From a virus (taxonomy: Duplodnaviria > Caudoviricetes), in IMG/VR virus record IMGVR_UViG_3300035501_000922: a stretch of DNA of 64,000 bases; one strand, 5' to 3'. Below, in pieces: positions 8,265-53,828 of the stretch. Made by a program: the position numbers and the translations under genes. The notes beneath the pieces were generated by a model, which was not told the DNA's origin, ran no database searches, and worked only from the letters and a program-made list of their open reading frames with translations. Position 1 is the first letter of the stretch. Each line of letters begins with the position of its first letter.

Positions 8265-8266
8265 AT

Positions 8267-8481: not shown

Positions 8482-9396
8482 ATGAAGAAAATTATTGTTA
8501 AGGTAAAAACAGTGGAGAAACCCAAAACTCATAATGATGAAGTGGATAGCTTAGTTGATAGCTTTGCTATGATACTATCACTTGCAGAGGGGTTGAACGC
8601 ACTCGATGAAAAATTAAAAGATCGCCCTAATAAAAAAAATAACGAATATAAGACCAATGAGTTAAAGAATGCTGTCGATAAAAATGTTGATGATGATTCT
8701 GATAATGAGCTTACTTGTATCATCAATGACTTAAATTATATAAAGATGTATAACGCCATGATTAACCTTTTTAATTGGGGTAAGCTTCATGTAGAATCCG
8801 ATAATATACATACGAAAACTATTAGTATACTCGACAGACTTATCAAGGTACTTGACTCAACTATGGAACCATCTACAACTATTGCAACGTACTATCCAAT
8901 AGCACAATTAGCAGAATGTATGTTCACTGAGGATAAGGAGATGGTTATAAATATATATACAAATATTACATCCAAGTTAATTATTGATTTATCACTTCAT
9001 AATGTTACTGTACTGGATGTAATAAACGAATTAAAAGTAATTCGTGATAATTATAAATATCAATATGACAATATACTGTCACAGTATATTAGCATCATAT
9101 CACCTACATATGGTGAGACTGCTCAGATTACATTATCTAAGTATTTAGCTATTTATCATAATGCACTGGAGAAAATCTGTAGTAAAACACCTGATAAAGA
9201 GATTACTATTACCGGTGTACTCAGCAATATTCCAAATATCGAAAACGTATACACGGATATCTATCATACTCTCCAGTTTATTGCAGAGATTATCGAAGAC
9301 GAACTTGAGTATAATTGGTTGATGGAGATTCCTGCAAAAGAACTTTTACGTATAATAAAAAAACTTGAATCACTTGTAAAGACTCAGAAAAAATGA
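8482..9396 (+). CDS. Hypothetical protein
   Basis: ~304 aa; AAAGGA RBS before ATG 8482. Confidence 0.6.
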   Translation: MKKIIVKVKTVEKPKTHNDEVDSLVDSFAMILSLAEGLNALDEKLKDRPNKKNNEYKTNELKNAVDKNVDDDSDNELTCIINDLNYIKMYNAMINLFNWGKLHVESDNIHTKTISILDRLIKVLDSTMEPSTTIATYYPIAQLAECMFTEDKEMVINIYTNITSKLIIDLSLHNVTVLDVINELKVIRDNYKYQYDNILSQYISIISPTYGETAQITLSKYLAIYHNALEKICSKTPDKEITITGVLSNIPNIENVYTDIYHTLQFIAEIIEDELEYNWLMEIPAKELLRIIKKLESLVKTQKK

Positions 9397-9430
9397 TTCA
9401 TTTAATATAAATAAAGGGGAGGTGTAAGTA

Positions 9431-9874
9431 ATGAGTGAGGTAAATACGACAGATAATGAGCAGTCATTATTTCAGTTATTTCTGGATGTAATGAATAAAA
9501 ACAAACAGAAAATACATGACGATGATATGGAAGAGCTCATAAAAAGATTAGGAAAAATATGTGCTCATTATGTCCAATATTTAGGAGATTTTGATGATAA
9601 TACGTACGTACCAATGATGATTAATTTCATCAGGTCTAATGTAATCATTGTTAGAGAACTCCGTCATCTTTATGATAATTATAGTAGCTTTATTTCATTT
9701 GAAATGATCGTACGAAGTATAATCGGATATCCATCACTACATATCAATATGATAAAAGAGATATCAGCTTTTTTATATAATAAACATCAGGACTTAATGT
9801 TTGTTACTGCATGTGATGAAATTATAAGCGCTTTAGACGAAGCATTAGAAAAGAGAACTACTTCGAATGAATAA
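9431..9874 (+). CDS. Hypothetical protein
   Basis: 147 aa, GGAGGTG RBS. Confidence 0.6.
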   Translation: MSEVNTTDNEQSLFQLFLDVMNKNKQKIHDDDMEELIKRLGKICAHYVQYLGDFDDNTYVPMMINFIRSNVIIVRELRHLYDNYSSFISFEMIVRSIIGYPSLHINMIKEISAFLYNKHQDLMFVTACDEIISALDEALEKRTTSNE

Positions 9875-9900
9875 CAATATAAAATAATTTAGTAATTTAA

Positions 9901-9932
9901 CGATTCCATTATATATTATTATAATGGAATCG
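9901..9932 (+). promoter_or_regulatory. Early-type promoter TATATATTAT embedded in a 13-bp inverted repeat
   Basis: Motif at 9910-9919; arms CGATTCCATTATA / TATAATGGAATCG; upstream of an RNAP gene. Confidence 0.55.
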
Positions 9933-9985
9933 TTGTTTATTATTAACTGAATTGATTCATAATTACATTGAAAGGAGTGTTTGTA

Positions 9986-40600: not shown

Positions 40601-43549
40601 TCTGAATCCTACTGTATTTTTAGTTTTGCTAGTACCGGTACCTGATGTAGTTGTTAATGATTGCCAAGTACCACTACTATCTTGCATAATTAATGATGAT
40701 TGCATTATACCATTAGTGCCTGCAGGAGCTTGGAAACTAGCCCATATGAGTCTATCAATTGTATTATCATCACCAGATTCTCTAAGACCATTGTTACAAC
40801 CATCGTATTCAGCATAACCGGAATAATTCGTAGAACCTGTACCACTTATTGCAGAGTAGAGCTGCAGTGTATCAGTCATAGATACAGTGCAGTTATTAGC
40901 CTCAATAATCTGTATTTTAAAAGTTCTTGGATAAGACGATGAAGTTGGATTTGTGGAGTTTCTTAAACCCACACCTAATGCGTGACCATATCCATTTGTA
41001 AAACCTGTGTTTGTTAATGTATACAATACATGATAGTACAAGGTTCTATATGACGTGCTATAATGTGCATTAGTACATTTATAAATGGTTCTTCCCGCTT
41101 GTGAGCCCCATAACTCAACTTCAAAATGACCATTGTAATTACCTTGGTCTGGTACATATGCGGTTATCTGATATTTAATATGCCATTCCTTATACCAATC
41201 ATCAGGAACTATAGATGCAAAATAAAATGTAGCACTAGCAAAGTTATTTGCAGATGCATAAATTCCTGTATAGGTTTTTTCTGCAATTATATGGTTATGG
41301 TCGTTTTTAGATGCACCAATATCATCTAAAGTAAAACTGATTCCAGTACCTGCTCCGCCTAGCGATTTAGAGGTATTGCCTATTGTAATTGTAGAAGGAA
41401 TCATATTTTTACAAACTGCTATCGACCCATCATCGGAACCACCGAGATAAACTTTACGTGCGTATGAGCCACCATCATAGTTTAAATATAGGTCACCAAT
41501 AGAATTACTGGTGGTAAGACCGTCGATGTGTCTTGTAAGTAGTCTGCTCTCAGCAGTACTACCATTATAAGATATGGTTACATAGTTTTTGAATGTCTTA
41601 TGACCTGATATATTCTGGTTAGAATGAATATAAACTAAATCTTCAGGAGCAGGTGTCCATTGTGTAGCTCTGGTTCCTTTCTCAACCTTTATGTCCTTAA
41701 TATATATTAACGGATTGCTTGAACTAGGTAAAAAATCTACAAACTGGTAACTAGTATTGTCGTAGTACTTAGTGGGTGTCCATGTTAATACGAAATAAGC
41801 GTATGTCGTAGTTAAATTGCATTTTAAATTAGTACCATCACATATATCAACGGTTAGAGTTGCTGTATCCGATCCTGTTTTGGCATAGAAACTAACAGTA
41901 TATGGAACCGCCTCTGTAATAATGTTATATAGTCTTAACTGGTCAGTGGCATTTGCTGCTATTTGAAAGCCATTTATGGTTAAATCTCTAGTCGCAGCAG
42001 CATTAGCATAATACTTGGTAGTTGTGCTATACAGATTTCGTCCACCAATTGTTAGCCCTTCAATTTTATCATTTAAGATTTTACCTTGATTTGCAGAAAG
42101 TGAATCTGTTGTGCTTGTGCTTGTAAGAACATCTTGTATACCTCTCCATGTATCAGTGAATTTTGCATTGGACGGAACAGATGCTTCTAGCGTATAAGTA
42201 CATGCTTTAGCAACACCACTTGAAATATAAACAGGGTTAGTTTCTGAACCGGCTGAACCTATTTTACCAGCCATGTATGCCCATAGTGAGCTCACGGGTC
42301 TTCTGTGGTATGTTGTAGTAGTCGTTCCACCACCAGCATACTGCGAAATGTAATAGTCAGCATCATTGGGTGTGGCAGTACCCGTTGTTAATGAATTTAT
42401 AAATGAAATAGCGGCAGCATTCAGTGATGTTTGACCAGTACCACCATATGCAGCACCGAGTGTTCCAACATCTACAACAGAAGAGCCATTATACGTTTTA
42501 CCGTTAATTGACAACGAATTAGAAACTTTAGTTGCAGTAGCAGCATTTCCGGTAATACTTATTCCCCATGTGCCATTTGCTCCAGTTCCTGTTTTGGTTA
42601 CAGTATAATCAGTGTAGTTGCCTGTATGAAGTGCCAAGTATGATGTCTGACTCCATGTAGAAGAGTCAGAATCATACGACGGTATAGCAATGTAGATACT
42701 ACCATTTCCAGCCTTGCTGCCTGAATCATATCCTGTAGATATATACGTGCTTCCTGTATGATGCGTACCAGCAGAATAAGATGCACCTATCCATAAATTA
42801 GTGCCATTGTCAATAATACCCGCATATAAAGCTCCAGTTTTATCGGTTAAGCAGTAACCTCTATTAGTGGTATTTATACCTAAACCACCAGTAATACTAT
42901 TTGAACCCGTCATAGGAATATAATTATGAGTATGTGATGTTGCAGCAGCGCCTATTTCAGCTAACGTCCATGATACATCAGCACTACCATCAAATGTTTT
43001 CCCTGTACTACCAATTGTTAACTTACGAGCGGTTTTTAATTTAGTAGCAGTATTTATATTACCAATTATATCATTTACAAATCTTGATGAACCTGTTACA
43101 ACTAAATCACCAACATTTTCGCTGTCTGCATATAATTCACTATTTATAGTTGTAATACCGGTTACTGTTCCTCCACTTAATGGAAGATAGTTGTTTAATG
43201 ACGTTTGCAAATCTGTTATATTACTAGTAGTAAGTGACGTCCATGTACCGTCACCTTTTAAAAACTTCGTATTACTACCTGCAGATGGAGCAGGAACAAG
43301 ACCGCTTGTTCCTGCTCCGCTACTTGTAGCTCCAGTCATTGTATTTATACTATTTTTAAAGGCAAGCGAGCCTAATTTATTTAATACGTCTTTTACTGTT
43401 GTTAAAGAAGATATATTACTATTAGTATTTCCAGTAAGTGTAACATCGCTACTTGTCGTTACTGGGAATACCGTAATTATTTTTTGATCACTACCGTTCA
43501 CTTCAATCTTTTTCAATTGGGCATGAACTTCTTGTGATGTTGTTGCCAT
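37670..43549 (-). CDS. Long tail fibre protein (1959 aa)
   Basis: GLVPAP, YLPLSGGT, TARxLTIG..FDGS repeats, SANQGKIL, CBM-like GRNL...KVEKGTRATQWTPAPED; late-type promoter at 43579-43590. Confidence 0.85.
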   Translation of the reverse strand: MATTSQEVHAQLKKIEVNGSDQKIITVFPVTTSSDVTLTGNTNSNISSLTTVKDVLNKLGSLAFKNSINTMTGATSSGAGTSGLVPAPSAGSNTKFLKGDGTWTSLTTSNITDLQTSLNNYLPLSGGTVTGITTINSELYADSENVGDLVVTGSSRFVNDIIGNINTATKLKTARKLTIGSTGKTFDGSADVSWTLAEIGAAATSHTHNYIPMTGSNSITGGLGINTTNRGYCLTDKTGALYAGIIDNGTNLWIGASYSAGTHHTGSTYISTGYDSGSKAGNGSIYIAIPSYDSDSSTWSQTSYLALHTGNYTDYTVTKTGTGANGTWGISITGNAATATKVSNSLSINGKTYNGSSVVDVGTLGAAYGGTGQTSLNAAAISFINSLTTGTATPNDADYYISQYAGGGTTTTTYHRRPVSSLWAYMAGKIGSAGSETNPVYISSGVAKACTYTLEASVPSNAKFTDTWRGIQDVLTSTSTTDSLSANQGKILNDKIEGLTIGGRNLYSTTTKYYANAAATRDLTINGFQIAANATDQLRLYNIITEAVPYTVSFYAKTGSDTATLTVDICDGTNLKCNLTTTYAYFVLTWTPTKYYDNTSYQFVDFLPSSSNPLIYIKDIKVEKGTRATQWTPAPEDLVYIHSNQNISGHKTFKNYVTISYNGSTAESRLLTRHIDGLTTSNSIGDLYLNYDGGSYARKVYLGGSDDGSIAVCKNMIPSTITIGNTSKSLGGAGTGISFTLDDIGASKNDHNHIIAEKTYTGIYASANNFASATFYFASIVPDDWYKEWHIKYQITAYVPDQGNYNGHFEVELWGSQAGRTIYKCTNAHYSTSYRTLYYHVLYTLTNTGFTNGYGHALGVGLRNSTNPTSSSYPRTFKIQIIEANNCTVSMTDTLQLYSAISGTGSTNYSGYAEYDGCNNGLRESGDDNTIDRLIWASFQAPAGTNGIMQSSLIMQDSSGTWQSLTTTSGTGTSKTKNTVGFRYDKVLFYSGGSNITSGNRTASSAIYSNLPIDFRYSSNCGTTLTAYSSVYLKGTIGTDGLFYLDDTWYTQTLPIEDDGYVYIYIGDSYNTYCIYLSTDKPTYWYKNGAIREYSDDGISLSSTQLSNWNTAYTHATSEHPYLLEKTISTATDFNTITTTGVYHIKFTSGTNQATTNHGTLYVDFTVGTPFQIWEPDNANISYKRTYATSTSTWGSWMKRLYSDTTYSAGTGLSLSSTTFSLATVTRTNNTSTVSPKASGTFNAIDTVTTDSYGRVTAVNLKTVTLPSDSDTVDGFHSLNNTFLYADYKTCNFTTTDNVYVKLTLSGSATYFTGMIRLFVKANYDNIAGTTFIDIYDRAQKLYIRSTSYNYNNLLGVYQPNASTQIFYLKLHGYRASTNSGGTLLSTQGTVTVYSTIGITSIEEVTSDSDDYATVSAYAYTEVLDYGISSGAMWGDIVPRGNNSKSLGSSSIKWKNVYSTTFTGALVGNADTATKLQTARTLTIGNTGKTFDGSSNVSWTFAEMGTDGRYVYDKSSVGSTNMNTVATFGNSIGMAQLNNTDITTPAYVNPNGQTDWHHFINMSFTVSSSNMWQTQIANKAGTTDLWIRSRKGGSVDNDTAWVAPWTRILTGTNWSNVITVSSLGAAASSHTHSYLPLSGGTMTGVLNLKGSMYTDARDGALNLNNSDIFGVNSILFSDNCDSAGEGLQWYRGSDTVDSMWDNNGTFYWTPNRTLGSTGTNYKVLDTNGILYSGNTKVSVEGHTHSYLPLSGGTLTGLLNANGGISIKGGTSSSNAFDSTNPKIQFMNANGDQGCQLVFTDYDAIQAPASLTLVGQAGEEAVYFIAPNIKATSYFYGNLSGTATNATKDSAGQQINTTYIKSISASGKTITVTKGDGTTSTATITESDTLETVTTRGNTTSKEIKSTNGTDSTSSTTGAITTSGGIGATGSISTGGKVNIADSVSLEYDSDEGCLNFIFA

Positions 43550-43653
43550 TATACTTACCTTCTTTCATATAAGATATTTAAATCATTGTTTTTTGTATAT
43601 ATTAATGCAAAACATAAAAGACAAGTCATGAAAAACATGACTTGTCTTTTTAT

Positions 43654-44520
43654 TTAAATATTAAATGAACTAAAGAAATCATCAACTTTGTGTTTAGTCT
43701 CAGGGCTGATATTAGCATAAATCATATTATCTTTATCTTTAATGATAGCATGTCTATGTGAATTATCAACACCAATTAATGACTCCATAGGTAAATCAAA
43801 TGATTCCATAATCATCTGTGTATTAACATCAGTCTTACCGATTGATTCAAGAATTTCTTTTAACGGAATCATAACTCCATTAATAGTTTCTTTTATATCA
43901 TTAACAGATTCAGTTACTGTCTTAATAGCTTTACTTACAGGTTTAATACTACTAATTGCATGAGCTTCTTTATGTGAAGGATACCATACAGCATCATATG
44001 TAATTAAGCGTCTTACAACAACAGTAGGTTTATTATTAATAAGCTTTAATGTTGCTATTGCTCTACAGCTAAATGACGGTTTCCATCCTGCTAAAATCTC
44101 TTTAGCAAAACCAATTCCAATATCTGTTTGAGCTGACTGAATCTTTCCTTGTAAAAGATTTCCAGTAAGTTTAGGGTTCATAATCTTAAATGTTCTTTTA
44201 ACAGGAGGAACATTCTGGATTCTTTCAGGACTAAGTTGTTCATCTTTTCTTTCAGGTGTGGGGTGGTCAAATTCACCAAACCAACAACCATCACGAAGTA
44301 AACATTGAATTTTTTCTTGCTGTATACATTCCCAGATGTTATCAGCTTTATACATTCTCTGGTTTCTGTTAATAACATCAAAAGACTGTAAGTTAGTATC
44401 AAACGTTACATAAAAAATCTTATTCTTATCGTAAACATCCATGTTACTAACAAGCTTGTCTCCTGTAACAGATTCTGATATATACATAAGACCAGCATCT
44501 TCATTAAGTTTTGTATTCAT
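43654..44520 (-). CDS. Prohead core protease (T4 gp21-like)
   Basis: NRNQRMY, GEFDHP (His), PSFSCRA (Ser), ITYDAV..PSH motifs; several xxE-S self-cleavage-like sites. Confidence 0.8.
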   Translation of the reverse strand: MNTKLNEDAGLMYISESVTGDKLVSNMDVYDKNKIFYVTFDTNLQSFDVINRNQRMYKADNIWECIQQEKIQCLLRDGCWFGEFDHPTPERKDEQLSPERIQNVPPVKRTFKIMNPKLTGNLLQGKIQSAQTDIGIGFAKEILAGWKPSFSCRAIATLKLINNKPTVVVRRLITYDAVWYPSHKEAHAISSIKPVSKAIKTVTESVNDIKETINGVMIPLKEILESIGKTDVNTQMIMESFDLPMESLIGVDNSHRHAIIKDKDNMIYANISPETKHKVDDFFSSFNI

Positions 44521-44537
44521 AAAATCACTACCTTTCT

Positions 44538-45323
44538 TTATAGTTTCAAAGCAATAAAACCATTATAGTAATATTGCTCAAGATTATATTCAAAAACACA
44601 ATCTGAATATGCATTCATTGGGATATTTGTTAAAGGTGTATAAAAAGCATACGGGCAATAATCATTATCACCCATTACAGGTACAGGTACTAACTCCATT
44701 TTTGAACCAACGATTGCAGAAAAATACTGTATATTCATATTATATAAACCCGTCGTTTTATTAGTAGTACACCGCAAATAATTTGTTGTAGTGGGTCCAC
44801 TGGCATATAAATTACGAGATGAACTATTATATGTAAATTCACTAGGTCGTATAATAGCGATGTTATCATTAATAGTCTTGGTTAAAATAATAGTAGATAC
44901 CGTCTTGTATGTTAAACCACAATCTGTGTAGTTAAATGTGAAACCGATACCATGGGTCGTTCTTATAATATCAGTAATGATACATTCACGTGCTGATGTA
45001 CCCGTATAACATAGATCAAGTCTGTTCGTATACCCTATTATTGCGTTGTTGAGTTCATGTATGACATAACCATTACCATCATATGACGCTGTATAAAGAA
45101 GATTACCATTAGCAGGTCTATAAACAAACCTAATTATTTCATTATTACCATTAAAGCAACGTAGATATAGTTTATCATCTGAAAATATTTTGTTATCTGT
45201 GGGCTCTTCAATTTTTATTTCCGTAAAATAATCCTGAGCATTTTCTTCCAACCACGCTTTTATTTCAGCAAACATGTTGTCATAACTGCTTAAGTTTTTA
45301 AGTTTATATCTCACAAGTCCCAT
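44538..45323 (-). CDS. Hypothetical protein, paralog of 45330-46163
   Basis: Shared RYK.KN N-terminus, TKT.N.NIA.I.PS and GD.DYCP..FYT...YY.NGFIAL. Confidence 0.6.
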   Translation of the reverse strand: MGLVRYKLKNLSSYDNMFAEIKAWLEENAQDYFTEIKIEEPTDNKIFSDDKLYLRCFNGNNEIIRFVYRPANGNLLYTASYDGNGYVIHELNNAIIGYTNRLDLCYTGTSARECIITDIIRTTHGIGFTFNYTDCGLTYKTVSTIILTKTINDNIAIIRPSEFTYNSSSRNLYASGPTTTNYLRCTTNKTTGLYNMNIQYFSAIVGSKMELVPVPVMGDNDYCPYAFYTPLTNIPMNAYSDCVFEYNLEQYYYNGFIALKL

Positions 45324-45329
45324 AAGTAT

Positions 45330-46163
45330 TTATTCACTTCCTATCTCTAATGCAATAAACCCATTAAAATAATAAAGTTTACCCTCAAAATTCATTATAC
45401 TATCAGCTCTACTATCAATTAAAGAAAATGGTGATGTTAATGTATAAAATACATGAGGACAATAATCATCATCACCACACACTAATACGGGTGCTAGAGA
45501 TGTCAACTCATGATATGTTGTACTCCACGTAATGCTAGTATCATAATAGGTTCCTCTACTTTTATTTGTTACAGCTTGAAGATAGTTTGTTTTGTTTTCG
45601 CCACCGGTTGTAGTACCGGTACCATTATATAAATAGTAGCTAGGCATGATAACCGCTATGTTATTATTATAAGTTTTTGTAATTGTTACACACCCATAAC
45701 TAAATACCGAAGGATATAAAGATTCACCTATGCAGAAAGATATACCATAGTCTGTTTTTATTATCTCAAAAATACGATTCATTATATAATGATTTGCATA
45801 CCAGCCACTATTTGGAAAACCGTTATTTTTATTATATGTATCGCTTGGAAGTTCTAAATATTTATCGTCATAAATATATCTATAAATATTTAAACCATGA
45901 CTTTTATTTTCTCCACCGTCATTTGTATAATTCGTGAATTTAAAAATATTTTTATTATCTTTTTTAAACACAACACTTACCGTATCTTTTATTGCAGTAC
46001 CATTTGATACAGCAGTATTATAATCGTCGTTATTATCATAATCGCAAACAAAATTGATTTCATCAAAATAATCTGTAGCTATCTCATCCATGACCTGTTT
46101 AACTTCAGCCAAATTTTCATACTGATAAGTTACATTCTTTATTTTATATCTTGTAAAATTCAT
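45330..46163 (-). CDS. Hypothetical protein, paralog of 44538-45323
   Basis: Same shared motifs. Confidence 0.6.
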   Translation of the reverse strand: MNFTRYKIKNVTYQYENLAEVKQVMDEIATDYFDEINFVCDYDNNDDYNTAVSNGTAIKDTVSVVFKKDNKNIFKFTNYTNDGGENKSHGLNIYRYIYDDKYLELPSDTYNKNNGFPNSGWYANHYIMNRIFEIIKTDYGISFCIGESLYPSVFSYGCVTITKTYNNNIAVIMPSYYLYNGTGTTTGGENKTNYLQAVTNKSRGTYYDTSITWSTTYHELTSLAPVLVCGDDDYCPHVFYTLTSPFSLIDSRADSIMNFEGKLYYFNGFIALEIGSE

Positions 46164-46175
46164 GTAATCACCTTC

Positions 46176-46898
46176 TTAAATATAATACATGGGTTGCATA
46201 TCAATATGATATGAATCATCCCATTTATTGATTAATTCATCTCTTGCTGATTCAGCATTTGCCCAATCATCAAGTTTAAGATTTATATTTCCTATTGCAG
46301 TATTTAATTCTGTATACATTTTTAATGTAGGATAAAGATTTGCTTTTACATCAAGTGATGCTAACTGCATAAATGATTCTCTTGCAGTTTCAGGTATTGA
46401 TGCTAATGATTTGTCATGCTCAAATCCTAATTCTAAAACTATTTTAGAACTGGAATAAAGATTATATAGATATAATTTCCTTGGTGGTTCATATTTAAAT
46501 GTCATCTTAGGCATCATCTGGTTAATCATATTAGCACCGGCATTAGCAAGTAATGTTTGGCTTATTATGTTTCCTGTCATAAGAGGCATACCACCACCGT
46601 AATATCCAAGTCCTGAAAGACAAGAGTCATCATACCTAACGTCAAATACGTACAGTAAATTCCTACTCTTAAATTCAGGAAGCAAATATACTTTATACTG
46701 TTCAGTCTTATCAATTCTTGTTAAATCATTTGTATTTAATGTAAGAAATTCTTTACATGGTTGATACAATGAAAAAACAGGAAGAGTAATATCTTTAATA
46801 ATAGTTTCCATAGTTTCATCAAGATTTTCAAATGGCGTTGATATTGCCATTAATCCTAATGATAACTTAATTCTTGTTATTACATTAGACATATTCAC
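46176..46898 (-). CDS. Putative neck/head-completion protein
   Basis: IKLSLG N-terminus and NINLKLDDWANAESARDEL C-terminus resemble myovirus neck proteins; late-type promoter. Confidence 0.45.
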   Translation of the reverse strand: MNMSNVITRIKLSLGLMAISTPFENLDETMETIIKDITLPVFSLYQPCKEFLTLNTNDLTRIDKTEQYKVYLLPEFKSRNLLYVFDVRYDDSCLSGLGYYGGGMPLMTGNIISQTLLANAGANMINQMMPKMTFKYEPPRKLYLYNLYSSSKIVLELGFEHDKSLASIPETARESFMQLASLDVKANLYPTLKMYTELNTAIGNINLKLDDWANAESARDELINKWDDSYHIDMQPMYYI

Positions 46899-46931
46899 GG
46901 ATAATCACCTCGGTTTAAGTTAAGATATATC

Positions 46932-46948
46932 TTAAAACATTGTTTTAA
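46932..46948. promoter_or_regulatory. Palindromic bidirectional late-type promoter TTAAAACATTGTTTTAA
   Basis: AACA-N6-TA on both strands (46936-46947 +, 46933-46944 -) between divergent genes. Confidence 0.65.
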
Positions 46949-46976
46949 CTACATAAAAAAGAGGGGTGACATATTA

Positions 46977-47402
46977 ATGTTATTTAAGAATAAGTATGTT
47001 GTTGCATACGAAAAGAAGATAAAAATTATAGTTGCTTCCAATATTACATATATTAAAAAGCGTTTAAATATATTTCCGAAGAATACATTAAGAAAACTAA
47101 ATAAAATGAAATTAGATAAAACCATAGAAGTTAGTGGTAAATCATATACAAGTGGTGAACTAACAAAACTGGTTTTATCTAAACAAAAAGAATTAACAAA
47201 AGAAACAAGTGTTTCTTCATACAGTGAAGTGTTAAAATCTTTTTCTAGAGAATGCAGTGGTAAGAATATGAATCAAGAGCAGTATAATGAAATATACGAA
47301 AAATATCAAGGTTTATTAAGAGATAGATTAAAGACAAATAAAGATGATTTATATTTTTGCTTAGATGCTTTAAAAGCAATAGAAAAAAGTTTTAAGGAAT
47401 AA
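46977..47402 (+). CDS. Hypothetical basic protein
   Basis: 141 aa ORF with RBS. Confidence 0.55.
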   Translation: MLFKNKYVVAYEKKIKIIVASNITYIKKRLNIFPKNTLRKLNKMKLDKTIEVSGKSYTSGELTKLVLSKQKELTKETSVSSYSEVLKSFSRECSGKNMNQEQYNEIYEKYQGLLRDRLKTNKDDLYFCLDALKAIEKSFKE

Positions 47403-47421
47403 AATAAGAGAGGTAATAATA

Positions 47422-47748
47422 ATGGATAATTCTATTATATATGACACATTATTAGAAAAATATTCAAGTAATGAACTTAATGAAAATGAGTTCATTGAAC
47501 TGGTAGAAGCAGTATCACGAAAATCCGGTAATAAATCTTCTAATAATAGTCAAGACATTGCTAAAGCTAGAAAATTCGTAAAAGACGTTATAGATATGGC
47601 TAAAGAAAGGAATTTAAACTGCTTTGTGGTTACAGACGGGGCATCTGGAATTACAAACAATGGTAATGAAGCGGTTCGTAATGCTAGAAAAGCACAAGAA
47701 GAATGGGAAAGAAAACATGGATTTGATCCCGATGAGGATTGGGGTTAA
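47422..47748 (+). CDS. Putative internal head protein with acidic leader module
   Basis: IYDTLLEKYSSNELNENEFIELVE-A leader shared with neighbouring genes. Confidence 0.5.
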   Translation: MDNSIIYDTLLEKYSSNELNENEFIELVEAVSRKSGNKSSNNSQDIAKARKFVKDVIDMAKERNLNCFVVTDGASGITNNGNEAVRNARKAQEEWERKHGFDPDEDWG

Positions 47749-47796
47749 ATAAAAGGAATTAGTATACGAATACTAATTCCTTTTATGTCTACAATT

Positions 47797-47868
47797 AAAA
47801 AACAAAAATATAAATTAATTATTATGAAAGAAGGTACTTATAATGGATATTGAAAATGAATTATATGA
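47797..47868 (+). repeat. Promoter+RBS+leader cassette, copy 1
   Basis: 72 bp identical to 51297-51368. Confidence 0.9.
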
Positions 47869-48550
47869 TTTATTAATTGATGCTATATGTGAAAAGTATA
47901 ATGATGGTATTATTAATGAACAAGATAGTATACTGTTGTTAGAAGGCGTAACAAATGTACTAAGAGCAGGGGTACTTGAAAATATTGACACGTTAGCAGA
48001 AGATAATAACGATTATAAACGTGAATATAAGAAAGCTATGGCTGAGTATAAAGAGAATATGAGATGTATTAAAAAATTAGTGCGAGAAAAGGATTTTAAA
48101 AATGCACGGTTACATTTAAAAAAGGCTCAAGATTCTCTTAAAAAAGCTAAGGGTATTATTACTGATATGGATAGCAGCATGACAGCTACTGCACTTTCAT
48201 GGATTACTCCATCACTTGAAGAAGCAATGAAAATATGTTTGACAGAGTTTACGGCTGTTATTATGTACGAGGTATCAGCACGTATGGTCGGATCTGCTGC
48301 GACTAAAAAAGAACATGATGAAAATGTTAAAGTGGCACGAGCTGTCGGTAAAACTTTATCACACTCTATATTATTTATACGAAAACTTAGAGTTACTTTA
48401 AAGAATCCTTCTGATAATGCTACAACCAATCTTAATGCAACTAGAGCAAGAATCTTATTAGAATTCGAAAAACTTGAAGACAAATTAGAAGACTATGAAG
48501 ATGTCATTGATGACAAAGAAGATAAATATAATACAACTAAAGTTGAATAA
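47843..48550 (+). CDS. Putative internal head protein (MDIENELY leader)
   Basis: Cassette leader; paralog of 48596-49405. Confidence 0.55.
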   Translation: MDIENELYDLLIDAICEKYNDGIINEQDSILLLEGVTNVLRAGVLENIDTLAEDNNDYKREYKKAMAEYKENMRCIKKLVREKDFKNARLHLKKAQDSLKKAKGIITDMDSSMTATALSWITPSLEEAMKICLTEFTAVIMYEVSARMVGSAATKKEHDENVKVARAVGKTLSHSILFIRKLRVTLKNPSDNATTNLNATRARILLEFEKLEDKLEDYEDVIDDKEDKYNTTKVE

Positions 48551-48595
48551 ATAAAATAAGAGTTACTATAATTATAGTAACTCTTATTTTATTTA

Positions 48596-49405
48596 TTAAA
48601 GATACTTGTCAGCGGCTCTTTCCATCAGCATAATTGCATCATTTGCAGAAATCTCATCATTAGAGAACTTCTCACAAATTGCGTCAACTAAAGCATCATA
48701 CATATATTCAGCAGATTCATTAGTACTCTGTCCCTGCTTTTTATTAAGCTTAAGTTCTTTTTTATTAATCTTCTTTTCAAAGCTAAGAAGATGCTTCTTA
48801 CATTGTTGTAAGGAAAGGACGATTCTTGCACGAGCAGGGTTTAATGCTTTGGCAGGATCAAGACTAGGATCGTATGCTTTATAAATACTAACTGCATTAT
48901 TAAATGTGGTAGTAAATGCAACAGACGCCTGCGCCACCATCGTTTCCTGTTTACTTTTTTTTACAGTATCAGAACTTACTTTTCCTGCAATGTTTCCAAT
49001 CCCAAGTAATGTATTCAATGTGCCCATTGTTAATGTTATGGCAATATAACCCTGGGTATAATCGATCATCCAGCTCATGCAGGTATCTAATGCTGAAGAG
49101 TCAATGCTATTAATGAGCTTTATACCATCATTAATTTTATCAGTCGCTTTAGAAAGTTCCGTGCGTGCTTTGTCAAATTCACCTGACTTAATACTAGCCT
49201 TAAGCTGAGTTACTATCGTCTTATAATCAGAAACTATCTTCTTATATTCAGCCTTATACTTATCAGAAACCGCTTTTGATTTCTTTAAGGAATCATCAGG
49301 ATCTACAATACTGTCTGATTCCAGCATCAAATCCATACAAGATTCAATAAATTCAGCATCATCCGAATCATTAATTAATTCGAGAAAATCATTATAATCA
49401 TTCAT
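48596..49405 (-). CDS. Putative internal head protein with the leader-like module at its C-terminus
   Basis: Core similar to 47843-48550; FIE-S/MLE-S/TNE-S sites; C-terminal YDALVDAICEKF; late-type promoter at 49443-49454. Confidence 0.55.
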   Translation of the reverse strand: MNDYNDFLELINDSDDAEFIESCMDLMLESDSIVDPDDSLKKSKAVSDKYKAEYKKIVSDYKTIVTQLKASIKSGEFDKARTELSKATDKINDGIKLINSIDSSALDTCMSWMIDYTQGYIAITLTMGTLNTLLGIGNIAGKVSSDTVKKSKQETMVAQASVAFTTTFNNAVSIYKAYDPSLDPAKALNPARARIVLSLQQCKKHLLSFEKKINKKELKLNKKQGQSTNESAEYMYDALVDAICEKFSNDEISANDAIMLMERAADKYL

Positions 49406-49457
49406 TAATAAAACCTTCTTTCATAAAAATAAAAAATTTTTTTATTTTATTGTTGGT

Positions 49458-49938
49458 TTACGGATATCTTAATTTTTTTAGCAGTTCATTGGTTTCATCA
49501 TTGTACTTTCTTAGGTCATCCATAGTCAAACCATTATTATCATTTTTTCCATTTATGATTCTATTATTGGCAAGTATATCAGATCTACACTTGTATATGT
49601 CTCCTTTTATTTTTATTGCTTCAAGAAATTCATCAGTATTAATAATATCTTTATCTAAATACGGCTGTAAATCTTTAGCTAGCTTTTTCATTTCTTCTTT
49701 CTTCTTTTCATTGTCTTCAGAAGCTTTCTTTTTTCGAATATCACCAACACCTTTTAGAATAACTGTAGCAGCTATTGTTGCTGAAGCTATAATCAAAATC
49801 ATTTTTATCTTTTTCTTTCTTTTATCACTCTCTTTTTTTATTTTTTTTTTGTTCTTCTTCCTGCTTCTTCTTTTGTGCATCATCAGTGGCAATATCTGTT
49901 TCACACATTAATTCATATAATTCATTTTCAATATTCAT
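49458..49938 (-). pseudogene. Leader-cassette gene (MNIENELYELM) frameshifted at an A10 tract
   Basis: AAGGAGG RBS and ATG 49938; frame closes after 37 codons; A9 instead of A10 at 49841-49850 would join the downstream frame. Confidence 0.65.
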
Positions 49939-49967
49939 TAGTAAAACCTCCTTAAATATAAATCGAT

Positions 49968-50747
49968 TTATATGTTTGTCTTTTTCACATTTTTAATACC
50001 ATCTACAATAGCACCTATTCTGTCTCCGCCACTATCAATAAGTCTATCATATGCTTCTAATATTTTAGGACCATTTTTTTTATTGCTAGATGTATTGGTA
50101 CGATTTGTTTTTTTACTATCATTACCTATTGTTGTTGCTTTACTCACTGCTCCTGCGGCTTTATCAATGTTTTGTTTCGTTTTTTGAACAGCCTCGTTTA
50201 TTGTTTTTACTTTGTCTATTGTTTCTGTAGTACGTTTGCTAATAGATTCATACATATCGGTTCCAGCATTAACTATTTTTTCAAGTCCATCTTTACTTTG
50301 TTTTTTTATAGTATCCGACCGTTTATTCATTTTCGTATCTCTTTTTTTAAGTTCGGACAAATCACTGTTTAGTGATTTCATCGATTTTTTAAGTGTATTA
50401 GCGGCACCATTTAACTTACTAATATTTTGTTCTTGTTTATCCAATCGTTGTTTCAGTTCCTCCATTTCAAGTCTTTGTTTTATATATGTTATCGTTGCAA
50501 GTGCCGCAAAACATATTAATATTCCATTACGTATTTTTTTTTCTAATTTTGTCTTTTTATCGTTACCAGAATTACTACTATTATCTATATGTATTTCAAC
50601 CGCAGGTGAAGTTTTTTCTTCATTAATTGTTTTATGGTTATTTATACTAGCAGTTTTTTGTACAGCTTCCGTTAACAATATACTCATATCTTCACTGGTA
50701 TTATCATACTCACACATTAATTCATATAATTCATTTTCAATATCCAT
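49968..50747 (-). CDS. Putative internal head protein (MDIENELYELM leader, TM plus coiled coil)
   Basis: Cassette leader, LTE-A site, hydrophobic helix. Confidence 0.55.
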   Translation of the reverse strand: MDIENELYELMCEYDNTSEDMSILLTEAVQKTASINNHKTINEEKTSPAVEIHIDNSSNSGNDKKTKLEKKIRNGILICFAALATITYIKQRLEMEELKQRLDKQEQNISKLNGAANTLKKSMKSLNSDLSELKKRDTKMNKRSDTIKKQSKDGLEKIVNAGTDMYESISKRTTETIDKVKTINEAVQKTKQNIDKAAGAVSKATTIGNDSKKTNRTNTSSNKKNGPKILEAYDRLIDSGGDRIGAIVDGIKNVKKTNI

Positions 50748-50786
50748 TATAAGTACCTTCTTTCATAATAATTAATTTATATTTTT
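50715..50786 (-). repeat. Leader cassette, inverted copy
   Basis: 72 bp reverse-complement match to 51304-51375; AACA promoter element altered. Confidence 0.9.
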
Positions 50787-50795
50787 TGCATACAG

Positions 50796-51248
50796 TTATG
50801 ATTCGTCATCATGTACTTCATCATCAATATCTTCATCACTTGCATCTGATTGACATTCGTAGTTAAATTTATCAACTTCTAACGAGTGTTCTCTTTCAGT
50901 TTTGGTTTCAAAATAAGACTTAAGACAATACGCCATAAATGACACGGTTTCTGCAACTACTGCAGAGACTAAAGCATCTAGTGTTGTTAAATCCTGAAAT
51001 TTATACATTACAACCATTGCATATAATTCAACTACTGTACAGTTAATAACTATAAAAGCCATAATTTGTTTTGTTGTAGTTGATAAATCAATGGCACGTT
51101 TTTCAGGTTTAGCTGGCCCATAATCAGTCATAATATCTTTTATCTCTTGTTTTTCTTTTTTCTTCTTAGCTTTTTTAATAGCTTTTTCACGCTTTTTATC
51201 ATATTTTTTTGTATGTTCATTATTACTATCTATACCCATATGTAACAC
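50796..51248 (-). CDS. Two-TM membrane protein (holin-like)
   Basis: Basic N-terminus, 2 TM segments, YCLKSYFE motif, acidic tail. Confidence 0.5.
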   Translation of the reverse strand: MLHMGIDSNNEHTKKYDKKREKAIKKAKKKKEKQEIKDIMTDYGPAKPEKRAIDLSTTTKQIMAFIVINCTVVELYAMVVMYKFQDLTTLDALVSAVVAETVSFMAYCLKSYFETKTEREHSLEVDKFNYECQSDASDEDIDDEVHDDES

Positions 51249-51296
51249 CTTCTTTATTTTTTTGTTTTATTCAAATAAAATGGTGTTTATATGTAA

Positions 51297-51375
51297 AAAA
51301 AACAAAAATATAAATTAATTATTATGAAAGAAGGTACTTATAATGGATATTGAAAATGAATTATATGAATTAATG
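51297..51375 (+). repeat. Promoter+RBS+leader cassette, copy 2
   Basis: Matches 47797-47868 and, inverted, 50715-50786. Confidence 0.9.
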
Positions 51376-51939
51376 ATTGAAGCTGGAGTTCCCAGTAAAG
51401 AATTTACTATAAGTGGTAATAAATTAAAAACTTTAAGCAAAAAACTCGAGGATACAGACGGATTAATTCGTGAAAAAATAAAAGATTTAAAACGAATTGA
51501 AAAACAGATACAATCTAATTTTAAAGCAGATACTATCATGCATGTCGGTAAAAAAGAGTTAGTAAATGGAAAAGGAGCTGCTAAAAATGCAGAATATATT
51601 TATCGTTATTTAACAGAAACTTTCGTTAAAGCCTCAGGGGATGTAAAACTTTATAAAATTAAAGCTAAGAAAAAATATATCAGTAAAACTGAATATGATG
51701 AGATTGTAAGTTTTATTCATGATATTTATCATGTAGAAAAATACGTAACACGATTGGATAAAGCGACAAATGATAGCTCAGCTAATAAACAATTTAAATT
51801 TAAAAGTGATATTAATGATATTAGAACAAGTAAAGAAATAGATGATATAATGGACATACCAAATTTAGTAAAATCAAAACAAACAGGTATTAATCATGCT
51901 GATCTTAATGTGCGTAGTAGATTCAAAAAGGTGTTATAA
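51343..51939 (+). CDS. Putative internal head protein (MDIENELYELMIE-A leader, basic cargo)
   Basis: Cassette leader followed by a Lys-rich unrelated body. Confidence 0.55.
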   Translation: MDIENELYELMIEAGVPSKEFTISGNKLKTLSKKLEDTDGLIREKIKDLKRIEKQIQSNFKADTIMHVGKKELVNGKGAAKNAEYIYRYLTETFVKASGDVKLYKIKAKKKYISKTEYDEIVSFIHDIYHVEKYVTRLDKATNDSSANKQFKFKSDINDIRTSKEIDDIMDIPNLVKSKQTGINHADLNVRSRFKKVL

Positions 51940-51979
51940 ATATAAAGATATGAGAGAGGTTTTTCCTCTCTCATATCTT

Positions 51980-52714
51980 TTATAATTCTTTCTTAAGTTC
52001 AGAAGGTAGCATAAGACCTTTAGTAACTAAGTCGGTATTTAGTCCCATTCCTAAGAAGTATACTGAAGTAGTATTCAGTGTCGTTTTATTTAATACGTCA
52101 TCCTCAAGGTCTTCCATAGTAGCATAACCATTAAGGGATATATTTCTAAGCATCTGTTCTTTCATGTGCATATCATCAGCTCTAGGACCGTTTAACTCTC
52201 TTAAAGTGTTATTTAATCCCAATGATATAAGCATAGTATTTTCAAGGTCTGATTCACGACCGTTCTTATCTCCACCAGTTACCTGACCTGTTATAGACGA
52301 ACGAGAATCGATATTAGTTGAAATACCATTCTTTTTGCTAACAGTCTGTTGTGTTCTCTTTATGTTAATATATCCAACAGGAACAGGTTCTGTTGTTCCT
52401 ATAACTTTGGATTTATCCATTGTTAAATGAGGCATAAACACATCTTCGAATAAAGGAACATTGATAACTTTAGCAGCTCTTTCAATATCCTCCATATCAA
52501 TTGTATGTTCATAATCAACTATATCAAGGATTAAGTATGCATCTTCGTTTGCAAAGAGAGCTTTAAAATAAGATTCAAATTGTTGATTAGACATAGGTTG
52601 GAATAGCTCTTTATACTTTTTTGTATTCGTTCCTGATTTATCAAATGCATCAAAAAAATCATATATTAGTTTTTCCATTTTACCACGTTTGTTGTCCGTA
52701 ATCAAACTCATCAC
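51980..52714 (-). CDS. Phage RNA polymerase beta subunit, C-terminal fragment
   Basis: VPVGYINIKRTQQTVSKKN...TGQVTGGDKNGRESDLE aligns with the beta C-terminal GY..KL.H...Q..GG...R.GEME region. Confidence 0.75.
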   Translation of the reverse strand: MMSLITDNKRGKMEKLIYDFFDAFDKSGTNTKKYKELFQPMSNQQFESYFKALFANEDAYLILDIVDYEHTIDMEDIERAAKVINVPLFEDVFMPHLTMDKSKVIGTTEPVPVGYINIKRTQQTVSKKNGISTNIDSRSSITGQVTGGDKNGRESDLENTMLISLGLNNTLRELNGPRADDMHMKEQMLRNISLNGYATMEDLEDDVLNKTTLNTTSVYFLGMGLNTDLVTKGLMLPSELKKEL

Positions 52715-53828
52715 CCACTTTCAATTTATAATCAGCATCATCTATATTTATTTCCATAAGGTTTCTATATTCACCTTGGTCGTCTTTATTAGTCCATAAT
52801 GATATACCTCGTATTTTATTAGGCTCACCATTAATAGCAAATAACAAATACACATTTTCATCATCATATTTAACCAAATGACTCATACTTACAGTATCAA
52901 AACATACTACTGCATGTTCATTTATCATTGCTGTCTTAACAAATGCTAGTTGCTTTTCCGTAAGTTTAGTTGTAAACTGTGTATTACCAATATATGATAC
53001 AATATCACCATCTAAAAGATCTCTAAGACGATACATCATTGTCTCTACGCTTTCATTAACTGGTATTATGTTATCTCCAAAAACAGCATAGTTTGATTTA
53101 GATTCAGTCAATTCTCTTTTAAGGTTTGTATCTAGTACTTTAGAACAATGACTACAGAAATCCCTATCAGATATAACATTTGATAATATTCCTATTACAT
53201 CATTATCGTACCTAAATAACCGATTAATTATATTTGACATCATATTCTCCGTACCATTGTACTTTGAATATATCTCTGCATAAATAGTAGGAGATAAACC
53301 AAGTTGCGTAAAGAATAAGAATATTAACGACGCTAATTCTTCTATATCTCCATGATTAGCAATGTTATTATTTATATACTTCAGTATTGTAGTATAAAAT
53401 TTCTGGTCTAATACCCAATCTATTTCTTTACTTCCTTCTTCAAATGAATAATTTATATATAACTCATATCCTTCAAGTTTCCAAGGTATAAGATTAAATA
53501 ATATAAATGAATAGGTTCTTTTATCAGATATACTGTCAATAATAAATCTTATAGACCTGAAAACATTTTTTATTTCATCTAATGTTGATACCTGAGAATT
53601 CAGTATTTCCAATAAACCATTACATACAGCTTGTTTTTCATAAGCACTAAATTTATTAATTGTGTGTACCATATGACTATACTGTGTACATTCTTTTTCA
53701 AGTGGGTCATTAGCATTAACACGAATAAATGTTTTCATTGGTAAATTAAAGTCATTACGATGACTAAATATTTTTACTTTATTTTCCCACGTACCATTTA
53801 AAAATGTATCTCTAAAATAATCCGTCAT
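52680..53828 (-). CDS. Hypothetical protein
   Basis: 382 aa, GAGGTG RBS. Confidence 0.6.
   Translation of the reverse strand: MTDYFRDTFLNGTWENKVKIFSHRNDFNLPMKTFIRVNANDPLEKECTQYSHMVHTINKFSAYEKQAVCNGLLEILNSQVSTLDEIKNVFRSIRFIIDSISDKRTYSFILFNLIPWKLEGYELYINYSFEEGSKEIDWVLDQKFYTTILKYINNNIANHGDIEELASLIFLFFTQLGLSPTIYAEIYSKYNGTENMMSNIINRLFRYDNDVIGILSNVISDRDFCSHCSKVLDTNLKRELTESKSNYAVFGDNIIPVNESVETMMYRLRDLLDGDIVSYIGNTQFTTKLTEKQLAFVKTAMINEHAVVCFDTVSMSHLVKYDDENVYLLFAINGEPNKIRGISLWTNKDDQGEYRNLMEINIDDADYKLKVGDEFDYGQQTW

What the first reader, a model, noticed from the sequence alone, without database searches (positions are those of the whole stretch)
47422..51939. Portable promoter+RBS+acidic leader cassette fused to different cargos next to the prohead protease: candidate capsid-targeting system
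Seen: a ~72 bp block (late-type promoter AACAAAAATATA, RBS, start of MDIENELY) is identical at 47797 (+) and 51297 (+), inverted at 50715-50786, and present as coding part only at 49938 (-). The bodies after the leader differ (helical bundle, TM plus coiled coil, Lys-rich). Leaders end in hydrophobic-x-E sites (LVE-A, LLE-G, LTE-A, MIE-A), and similar sites occur in the protease at 43654-44520. Known: T4 gp21 and phiKZ gp175 cut after xxE, and T4 internal proteins share a short capsid-targeting leader on variable cargo; IPI is an anti-restriction factor. Inference: the cassette recruits new proteins into the head for injection, so the cargos may be anti-defence or host-takeover effectors.
Basis: partly seen in the sequence, partly recalled or inferred. 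Interest (0 to 1): 0.8.

Follow-up and report, generated by a model that had tools for sequence, protein, structure and literature searches.

The report
Shuffled leader cassette in jumbo phage
In a fragment of an uncultivated giant phage, four neighbouring late genes share the same start block (promoter, ribosome site, acidic leader peptide) on unrelated basic proteins, as the injected internal proteins of phage T4 do; whether the leader addresses them to the capsid is plausible but unproven.

Summary
The repeat is real. A 72-nt block is identical at 47797 and 51297. A 69-nt inverted copy is 99% identical at 50718-50786. A fourth copy, 80% identical, lies at 49909-49984. All four begin genes with unrelated bodies.

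The window is part of an AR9/PBS1-like jumbo phage. It has split multisubunit RNA polymerase genes and a T4 gp21/phiKZ gp175-type prohead protease. The promoter (AACA-N6-TA) and the ribosome site are the phage's ordinary late signals and also drive the tail-fibre gene. Only the peptide-coding part is special to the cassette.

I also found a second portable element, a roughly 34-aa two-helix module that is a divergent SHOCT domain. In this phage clade it sits at the N- or C-terminus of many unrelated proteins: YezG-like immunity, GNAT, P-loop NTPase, membrane/coiled-coil proteins and a helical family.

The leaders are the most acidic N-termini of the contig, end in hydrophobic-x-Glu followed by a small residue, and precede basic bodies. 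T4 ipII and ipIII, checked here, show the same layout.

Against capsid targeting:
- the MDIENELY leader is absent from relatives;
- the module also occurs C-terminally and elsewhere in relatives' genomes;
- some cargos look membrane-anchored;
- no virion data exist.

The capsid-targeting reading is partly supported, at about 0.4. Other readers of this scan had already noted this stretch.

The parts
43654..44520 (-). Prohead maturation protease (288 aa), T4 gp21 / phiKZ gp175 type
   Evidence: Pfam Peptidase_S77 1.5e-8 and S80 4.8e-7; PHROG head maturation protease 1.6e-15. Best tblastn hits are Staphylococcus, Listeria, Yersinia and Bacillus AR9-like jumbo phages. It carries ISE|S at residue 14, a site conserved in form in all 8 relatives, and VTE|S, ILE|S and IME|S in the C-terminal part.
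46176..46898 (-). Conserved virion structural protein (240 aa) that bounds the variable slot on the protease side
   Evidence: phrog_18911 'virion structural protein' 1.9e-24. Syntenic in L001-L004. AACA-N6-TA lies upstream.
46977..47402 (+). Conserved 141-aa gene with a late promoter. Its homologue in L005 carries C-terminal SHOCT-like modules.
47422..47748 (+). g108: N-terminal SHOCT-like module (residues 2-34, ending LVE|A) followed by a 79-aa basic body
   Evidence: Module profile hit 3e-17. Leader charge -7, body pI 8.1.
47797..47884 (+). Cassette copy A: late promoter AACAAAAATATA (47801-47812), 31-nt leader RNA with ribosome site GAAGG, ATG at 47843, first 14 codons
47843..48550 (+). 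g235: MDIENELYD leader running into a SHOCT-like module (residues 10-36, ending LLE|G), then a helical body; paralogue of g269
   Evidence: The module profile built without g235 still finds it at 25 bits. BLASTP against g269 gives 2e-16.
48543..48600 (.). Palindrome (29-nt arms, 97% complementary) between the convergent genes g235 and g269; probable two-way terminator
   Evidence: Inverted repeat I10.
48596..49405 (-). g269: acidic N-terminal two-helix leader (ending MLE|S), helical body with a hydrophobic stretch, C-terminal SHOCT-like module (234-267); own late promoter at 49443-49454
   Evidence: AlphaFold2 model is all-helical, pLDDT 62, with the C-terminal module as a helix-turn-helix at pLDDT 82-88.
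49458..49990 (-). Cassette copy D and a broken gene: GACA-N6-TA promoter, own ribosome site, leader MNIENELYELMCE. The frame ends after 37 codons; the downstream frame, which encodes a Lys-rich stretch and a clear membrane helix, follows after an A10 run at 49841-49850.
49968..50786 (-). Cassette copy C (50679-50786, without AACA) and g259: MDIENELYELMCE leader, acidic region ending LTE|A, short hydrophobic helix, basic coiled coil
   Evidence: Only weak coiled-coil-type PHROG hits.
50796..51248 (-). g150: conserved slot gene with a Lys-rich N-terminus, a membrane helix and an acidic tail (holin-like in form only); late promoter AACAAAAAAATA, divergent from copy B
   Evidence: Homologues in L001-L004.
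51297..51939 (+). Cassette copy B (51297-51384) and g198: leader MDIENELYELMIE|A and a 185-aa basic body (pI 9.6) with no homologue
51944..51980 (.). Hairpin terminator between g198 and the convergent RNA polymerase subunit gene

Best explanation
This is a hypervariable late-gene slot of an uncultivated AR9/PBS1-like jumbo phage.

Shown here:
- Homologous recombination or gene conversion has spread one 5' block (late promoter, ribosome site, first 9-20 codons) over four neighbouring genes with unrelated bodies.
- The block encodes a short acidic helical leader.
- Next to it the clade uses a second portable tag, a SHOCT-like two-helix module.

Inferred: both tags give unrelated proteins a common address. 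The most likely address is the assembling prohead core. There the gp21-type protease encoded about 3 kb from the nearest leader gene would cut after hydrophobic-x-Glu (MIE|A, LLE|G, LVE|A, MLE|S). That would free basic proteins that stay in the head with the DNA and enter the next host, as the T4 internal proteins and Alt do.
For: - The repeat and its sharp boundaries.
- Synonymous sites and the untranslated leader are identical in three copies. In the older fourth copy the coding part (2 differences in 39 nt) is better kept than the untranslated part.
- A T4-type protease and a virion protein flank the slot.
- The late promoter matches the AR9 consensus and lies upstream of 21 of 91 genes, against 5.9 +/- 2.3 in shuffles.
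- The four most acidic N-termini of the contig are g269, g259, g235 and g108. All five intact leader genes (g108, g235, g269, g259, g198) carry [LIMV]-x-E-[ASG] within 45 residues, against 10 of the other 85 genes.
- The bodies are basic, pI 8.1-9.8, like T4 IPI-III at 9.0-9.65.
- T4 ipII and ipIII share an identical ribosome site and 11 codons (MKTYQEFIAE|A) on unrelated bodies. Their capsid targeting and L/I-x-E cleavage are documented in PMC9026906.
- The same site type occurs at the protease N-terminus and at the expected maturation position of the capsid protein in relatives.
- After the invariant Glu of the module, 12 of 15 N-terminal modules that precede a cargo have A, G or S. About 33 of 40 C-terminal or internal modules have K or R.
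- Cargos in relatives include a YezG-like immunity domain, a GNAT and a P-loop NTPase.
- In relative L001 two neighbouring genes again share only their N-terminal 72 residues.
Against: - No virion, cleavage or expression data exist for this phage or any close relative.
- The MDIENELY leader is absent from relatives, and their leaders are not detectably similar.
- The module is a SHOCT relative. That domain is widespread in bacteria and is predicted by others to act next to the membrane.
- The module is often C-terminal, tandem or internal. In the complete 250-kb relative it sits in genes scattered over the genome.
- The broken gene has a clear membrane helix and g259 a borderline one. In L001 the shared part includes the membrane helix.
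- The motif is short, and the leaders are related to one another, so the counts are not independent.
- Cultured AR9-like phages lack the module, and their head-module proteins show no significant similarity.
Confidence: 0.4

Rival explanations
1. Membrane-proximal docking, unrelated to the capsid. The SHOCT-like module and the acidic leaders recruit late accessory proteins to the inner face of the membrane, or to a complex built by the membrane-anchored paralogues. Possible roles are lysis timing, exclusion of other phages, and interception of incoming toxins by the YezG-like protein. The hydrophobic-x-Glu ending is then simply the end of helix 2.
For: The module is linked to Pfam SHOCT through P0014: the A2 profile finds P0014 at 2e-12, and P0014 hits SHOCT at 4.8e-14. 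A published comparative analysis predicts that SHOCT-like domains at either terminus anchor diverse proteins at the inner leaflet (PMC11237479). Many module proteins in the clade have the order module, Lys-rich stretch, membrane helix, coiled coil. The module occurs at C-termini and in tandem. Slot neighbours g150 and the broken gene are membrane proteins. The L001 pair shares leader plus membrane helix.
Against: The role of SHOCT is itself only predicted, and the one experiment on it was negative for oligomerisation (PMC3581485). This reading does not explain why N-terminal modules before a cargo switch to a small residue after the Glu. It does not explain why the bodies are basic and the leaders acidic, or why the slot lies next to the protease and a virion gene. 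g198, g235 and g108 have no membrane segment.
Confidence: 0.27
2. Expression-signal capture only. Recombination in a plastic region copied a strong late promoter, ribosome site and start region onto neighbouring genes, like the regulatory cassettes of T4-type phages. The first codons came along as passengers and have no addressing role.
For: Promoter and ribosome site are generic and shared with the fibre gene. The exact leader is found only in this phage. Cassette-mediated shuffling of orphan genes is documented in T4-type phages (PMC2839356). g198 has no homologue anywhere. The inverted copies could simply mark an inversion.
Against: In the older copy the coding part is better conserved than the untranslated part. 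Homology among g198, g259 and the broken gene extends to about 20 codons. Neighbours without the cassette, and slot proteins of relatives, also start with acidic helical leaders ending in hydrophobic-x-Glu.
Confidence: 0.2
3. Prohead core or scaffold components. The helical proteins g235, g269 and g259 build or size the core and are degraded by the protease, like T4 gp22, gp67 and gp68. They would not be delivered as effectors.
For: g235 and g269 are all-helical paralogues. g235 has the highest [LI]-x-E density of the contig. Beyond its leader, g259 has the highest [LIMV]-x-E-[ASG] density. Cultured relatives have small acidic and membrane proteins between protease and capsid gene.
Against: Relatives carry a separate highly acidic scaffold-like gene next to the capsid gene. 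g198, g269 and g108 have no internal sites. The slot content is not conserved among relatives, which is unlike essential core proteins.
Confidence: 0.08

Closest known systems
T4 internal proteins IPI, IPII, IPIII (and Alt) with the capsid targeting sequence
   Same: A short N-terminal leader is shared by unrelated small basic proteins and ends in hydrophobic-x-Glu|Ala. A gp21-type protease is present. Ribosome site and leader codons are identical at the DNA level between paralogous loci: T4 ipII/ipIII checked, roles from PMC9026906. The loci are variable among related phages (PMC2839356).
   Different: There is no sequence similarity to MKTYQEFIAE. The leaders here are longer and much more acidic (-5 to -10). 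The phage lineage is different (AR9-like, with its own RNA polymerases), and the promoters are late rather than T4-type. Some cargos carry a membrane helix. A second, SHOCT-like tag is involved. Packaging and cleavage are untested.
Mobile regulatory cassettes (PeSL) and the analogous elements at T-even IP loci
   Same: A block of about 70-100 nt holding promoter and ribosome site, near stem-loops, is repeated before orphan genes in plastic regions and is thought to mediate recombinational shuffling.
   Different: PeSLs are sigma-70-like early promoters with G/C stem-loops and end at the ATG. Here the promoter is the AR9-type AACA-N6-TA and the shared block runs 9-20 codons into the gene. No mini-circles or recombinants have been observed.
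Propeptide-bearing head and ejection proteins of phiKZ-like phages (phiKZ, 201phi2-1, SPN3US)
   Same: These are jumbo phages with a gp21-related protease that removes N-terminal propeptides of 20-254 residues after x-x-Glu from many head proteins that are later ejected (PMC10052503).
   Different: The motif there is A/S/G-x-E. No shared short leader or repeated DNA cassette has been described there, and I detected no homology of the cargos.
SHOCT domain (Pfam PF09851) and SHOCT-like two-helix domains
   Same: It is a two-helix module of about 30 residues, mostly C-terminal and sometimes N-terminal or tandem, found on many unrelated proteins. P0014 gives a transitive profile link.
   Different: The window's own copies do not reach Pfam SHOCT at E 0.01. 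This phage subfamily has its own signature (ICEKY...LLLE). Its use as an N-terminal tag with a protease-like site on phage proteins is not described in the papers I read.
P22 scaffolding protein C-terminal helix-turn-helix and encapsulin cargo-loading peptides (from my own knowledge, not tested here)
   Same: Short terminal helical tags that bind the inside of an HK97-fold shell and load cargo, and that work at either terminus.
   Different: The P22 tag is basic whereas these tags are acidic. No similarity was tested or found.

Membership tests
T4-type capsid targeting sequence / internal proteins | Short N-terminal propeptide shared by otherwise unrelated proteins | tested here: met
   MDIENELYELM is shared by four genes with unrelated bodies.
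T4-type capsid targeting sequence / internal proteins | Sequence relationship to the T4 leader MKTYQEFIAE | tested here: not met
   T4 ipI, ipII and ipIII were read. Only the pattern is alike (aromatic residue, hydrophobic-x-E|A); there is no alignable similarity.
T4-type capsid targeting sequence / internal proteins | Cleavage after L/I-x-E by a gp21-family prohead protease | tested here: inconclusive
   A protease of the family is present, and the motif is present in all leaders and in the protease and capsid protein of relatives. Cleavage itself cannot be tested with these tools.
T4-type capsid targeting sequence / internal proteins | Encapsidation and ejection of the mature protein | not testable with these tools
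   The phage is uncultivated and has no proteome. The module is absent from cultured relatives that have proteomes.
T4-type capsid targeting sequence / internal proteins | Small basic mature proteins | tested here: met
   Bodies have pI 8.1-9.8, against 9.0-9.65 for T4 IPs.
AR9-type late promoter | AACA-N6-T(A/G) about 20-45 nt upstream of the start codon, enriched before genes | tested here: met
   Consensus from PMC5312081. Exact in copies A and B, one mismatch in copy D, absent in copy C. Found before 21 of 91 genes, against 5.9 +/- 2.3 in shuffles.
SHOCT domain (PF09851) | Match to the Pfam model | tested here: inconclusive
   The window proteins give no hit at E 0.01. The link is transitive: profile A2 finds P0014 at 2e-12 in 1.84 billion proteins, and P0014 hits SHOCT at 4.8e-14 and DUF1707 at 8.4e-8.
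SHOCT domain (PF09851) | Two short helices, terminal position, many unrelated partner domains | tested here: met
   AlphaFold2 gives helix-turn-helix at 230-268 of g269.
PeSL mobile regulatory cassettes | Sigma-70-like early promoter with a G/C stem-loop, ending at the start codon | tested here: not met
   Sigma-70-like sites are not enriched (30 found, 33 expected). The promoter is of the AR9 late type, and the block extends into the coding region.
Peptidase S77/S80 prohead proteases | Profile match above the Pfam cut-off | tested here: met
   S77 scores 34.8 bits (cut-off 27) and S80 scores 29.6 bits (cut-off 23.4).

The most novel reading that the evidence does not exclude
An uncultivated clade of AR9-like jumbo phages uses acidic helical leaders and a SHOCT-like two-helix module as a general address label for the prohead. 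The label would load enzymes and immunity proteins (YezG-like, GNAT, NTPase, orphan basic proteins) for injection. Membrane-anchored bearers of the same label would tether the prohead to the membrane until the gp21-type protease cuts the label off. That would give the SHOCT domain family its first concrete function and provide a sequence-based way to list injected effectors of giant phages.
Probability: 0.25. Interest if true: 0.8.

Novelty: new variant of a known kind. Interest (0 to 1): 0.55.

Why it matters
If the leaders and the module are capsid addresses, injected proteins of a whole group of giant phages could be read from sequence alone. The variable slot would then be a catalogue of counter-defence candidates. 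The tags could be used to load foreign proteins into phage heads, as the T4 leader has been. It would also assign a role to the widespread but uncharacterised SHOCT domain.

Even if the address is the membrane, the finding shows a phage clade reusing one small module on many unrelated accessory proteins. It also shows late-promoter cassettes that shuffle gene heads in a lineage far from T4.

Tried and rejected
- Megablast of 43000-53000 and tblastn of g235 against 50,697 phage records gave no match.
- An exact degenerate DNA pattern for the leader gave no match in IMG/VR.
- Word-index homologue searches found only self-hits for g198 and g269.
I therefore could not check the A10 run or the inversion state in the other assemblies that hold g198.
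- The protein atlas gave no usable neighbours for g198 or g235.
- The AlphaFold2 model of g269 (pLDDT 62) had no Foldseek match in the PDB at E 0.001. ClyA/Hbl-type toxins appeared only at E 0.1-0.4 with TM below 0.25, so I do not claim a pore-former fold.
- The idea that the MDIENELY leader is a truncated SHOCT module is not supported for g198 or the broken gene, and is only faint for g259 at 6.6 bits.
- The idea that relatives' leaders (MDIDMIFEELVLES) are homologous to the window's leader is not supported.
- Similarity of the slot proteins to head-module proteins of Goe21 and LPJP1 is not significant.
- The spanin reading of g259 rests only on coiled-coil-type PHROG hits, and I reject it as a family assignment.
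- The capsid gene is not on this 85.7-kb fragment, so relatives were used for it.

Full report
**What the window is.** The window is bases 925-64924 of a single 85.7-kb viral contig with 32% G+C. It encodes several split subunits of multisubunit RNA polymerases. It also encodes a prohead protease that passes the Pfam cut-offs of both Peptidase_S77 (T4 gp21) and S80 (phiKZ gp175). The nearest proteases in cultured phages belong to Staphylococcus jumbo phages, Listeria LPJP1, Yersinia phiR1-37 and the PBS1-like Bacillus phage Goe21, at 24-29% identity. IMG/VR holds closer uncultivated relatives with contigs of 203 and 250 kb, the latter rated complete. The window is therefore about a third of an AR9-like jumbo phage.

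**The observation.** The repeat is as described, and too long and exact to be chance.
- 47797-47868 equals 51297-51368 over 72 nt.
- 50718-50786 is the reverse complement of 47804-47872 at 99%.
- A fourth copy at 49909-49984 is 80% alike.
- The peptide M(D/N)IENELY occurs four times in the contig and nowhere else.

The copy before g259 begins just after the stop of the upstream gene and has TGCA in place of AACA, so it has no consensus promoter. The copy at 49938 keeps a near-consensus promoter and its own ribosome site. That gene is interrupted after 37 codons. The frame that continues, and that encodes a Lys-rich stretch and a clear membrane helix, is reached only by skipping one base at an A10 run (49841-49850).

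**Which parts of the block are special.** AACA-N6-T(A/G) is the published late promoter of AR9, with the last base as the transcription start (PMC5312081). In this contig it lies 15-70 nt before 21 of 91 genes. Shuffled upstream regions give 5.9 +/- 2.3, and random placement of the same number of sites gives 3.7 +/- 1.9. The ribosome-site context TATGAAAGAAGGT also precedes the 1959-aa fibre gene and g269. Promoter and ribosome site are thus the phage's standard late signals, and only the coding part is particular to the cassette. Synonymous sites and the 31-nt untranslated leader are identical in three copies, which points to recent recombination or gene conversion rather than selection on the peptide alone. 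In the older fourth copy the coding part (2 differences in 39 nt) is better kept than the untranslated part, which hints that the peptide matters. Weaker similarity among g198, g259 and the broken gene runs to about codon 20 (inverted repeat I1 and direct repeat D1).

**A second portable element.** In g235 the leader runs into a roughly 34-residue two-helix module with the consensus ..IVDAICEKYNNGEI......LLLE.A. The same module starts g108 and ends g269. g235 and g269 are paralogues over their bodies (2e-16).

A profile of the module finds 43 proteins at E of 1e-3 or better among 1.84 billion. One of them, P0014, has tandem copies and matches Pfam SHOCT at 4.8e-14 and the SHOCT-like DUF1707. 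The module is therefore a divergent SHOCT domain, although the window's own copies do not reach the Pfam model.

In relatives the module precedes several kinds of cargo:
- a YezG-like immunity domain (8.8e-8);
- a GNAT acetyltransferase (8e-10);
- a P-loop NTPase;
- many proteins built as module, Lys-rich stretch, membrane helix, coiled coil.

It also ends other proteins, in one to three copies. In the complete 250-kb relative it sits in five genes spread over the genome, some next to replication genes. A module profile built without g235 still finds g235 (residues 10-36, 25 bits). It does not find the leaders of g198 or the broken gene, and finds g259 only faintly. Leader and module are therefore separate elements that abut in g235.

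**The slot in relatives.** The content between the RNA polymerase subunit gene (51980-52714 here) and the conserved 141-aa and 240-aa genes differs in every relative. L003 and L004 have four genes there. L002 has three more, including the YezG and NTPase fusions. L001 has three others.

The exact MDIENELY leader is missing from all relatives, and their leaders are not detectably similar to it. Even so, their slot proteins also start with acidic helical segments ending in hydrophobic-x-Glu. In L001 two neighbouring genes share only their first 72 residues, made of leader, Lys-rich stretch and membrane helix (8e-17), and have unrelated remainders. A shared head with a variable body is thus a recurrent design in the clade.

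**Evidence on cleavage and packaging.**
- The four most acidic N-termini of the contig are g269, g259, g235 and g108.
- All five intact leader genes (g108, g235, g269, g259, g198), and the protease, have [LIMV]-x-E-[ASG] within the first 45 residues, against 10 of the other 85 genes. The leaders are related to each other, so these are not independent events.
- The bodies left after such cuts are basic (pI 8.1-9.8). g198 would give 185 residues at pI 9.6, much like T4 IPIII at 183 residues and pI 9.65.
- In T4, read here from NC_000866, ipII and ipIII share an identical ribosome site and eleven codons (MKTYQEFIAE|A) before unrelated bodies. [quoted passage not shown]
- The protease N-terminus carries Y-I-[SA]-E in all eight relatives.
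- The capsid proteins of relatives start with F-[LI]-S-E-S. They also have hydrophobic-x-E|S about 20 residues before the conserved PIL(I/V)K, as do SA1, LPJP1 and Goe21.
- After the invariant Glu of the module, 12 of 15 N-terminal modules that precede a cargo have A, G or S, whereas about 33 of 40 C-terminal or internal ones have K or R. Shared ancestry confounds this count.
- Beyond the leader, only g259 and the protease are rich in the motif. g198, g269 and g108 have none. That fits cargo that survives, not scaffold that is degraded.

**Evidence against.** Nothing shows that these proteins are in virions or are cut. SHOCT-like domains have been predicted, from their contexts, to hold diverse proteins at the inner face of the membrane (PMC11237479). 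The original SHOCT paper found no oligomerisation and left the function open. Many module proteins of the clade are membrane-anchored, which suits that reading and sits less easily with packaging. Here the broken gene has a clear membrane helix, g259 has a borderline one, and g150 is also a membrane protein. Cultured AR9-like phages lack the module. Their small head-module proteins resemble the slot proteins only in being acidic at the N-terminus. The fold of g269 is all-helical, modelled with moderate confidence, and has no informative structural match.

**Verdict.** The formal parallel with the T4 internal-protein loci is close and is now documented side by side, and the protease family and site type fit. 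On the other side, the promoter and ribosome site are generic, the leader is lineage-specific, and the newly recognised SHOCT-like module opens a serious membrane-docking alternative.

| Reading | Weight |
|---|---|
| Capsid addressing with proteolytic release | about 0.4 |
| Membrane-proximal docking | about 0.27 |
| Mere capture of expression signals | about 0.2 |
| Core or scaffold role | about 0.08 |

Other first-stage readers of this scan had flagged this same stretch: the cassette, the module at opposite ends of the convergent paralogues, and the A10 frameshift. An earlier follow-up had already called the phage AR9-like. I re-tested those points here.

Noticed in passing
window 49825-49938, A10 run at 49841-49850 (minus strand): The fourth cassette gene stops after 37 codons. 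The downstream frame (to 49458) encodes a Lys-rich stretch and a clear membrane helix and is reached by skipping one base in an A10 run. This could be a sequencing error, transcriptional slippage, phase variation or a dead gene.
   Followed up: partly
window 44538-46163 (minus strand); L001-L004 about 6500-9950: Tandem paralogues of 261 and 277 aa (four copies in relatives) lie between the protease and the virion protein gene. They share conserved ends (...YYFNGFIALE) and have no family match.
   Followed up: no
window 50796-51248 (minus strand): g150 is conserved in the slot of all close relatives. It has a Lys-rich N-terminus, membrane helices and a very acidic tail, which is holin-like in form. 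No family match.
   Followed up: partly
L002:1999-2484 and L024:1459-2082: In relatives, a YezG-like immunity domain and a GNAT acetyltransferase are each fused behind the N-terminal SHOCT-like module that ends in LLLE|AS or LLLE|KV.
   Followed up: partly
window 47804-47872 and 50718-50786: The two 99%-identical cassette copies are inverted repeats around a 2.8-kb segment. Recombination between them would flip the segment and swap the bodies of g235 and g259 behind equivalent heads. Slot genes are all co-oriented in relatives but not here.
   Followed up: no
window 51250-51320: Divergent late promoters sit back to back, for g150 on the minus strand and g198 on the plus strand, within an imperfect 28-nt inverted repeat (51253-51280 and 51287-51314).
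   Followed up: no
L031:3398-4441 and L031:1438-3249: In the 250-kb relative the capsid gene (603 aa) lies far from the protease. It is preceded by a 347-aa extremely acidic repeat protein (IEPLEDD...), probably the scaffold. The window's contig lacks both genes.
   Followed up: partly
window 37670-43549 (minus strand): A 1959-aa fibre-like protein with repeated segments uses the same late promoter type and nearly the same ribosome-site block as the cassette.
   Followed up: no
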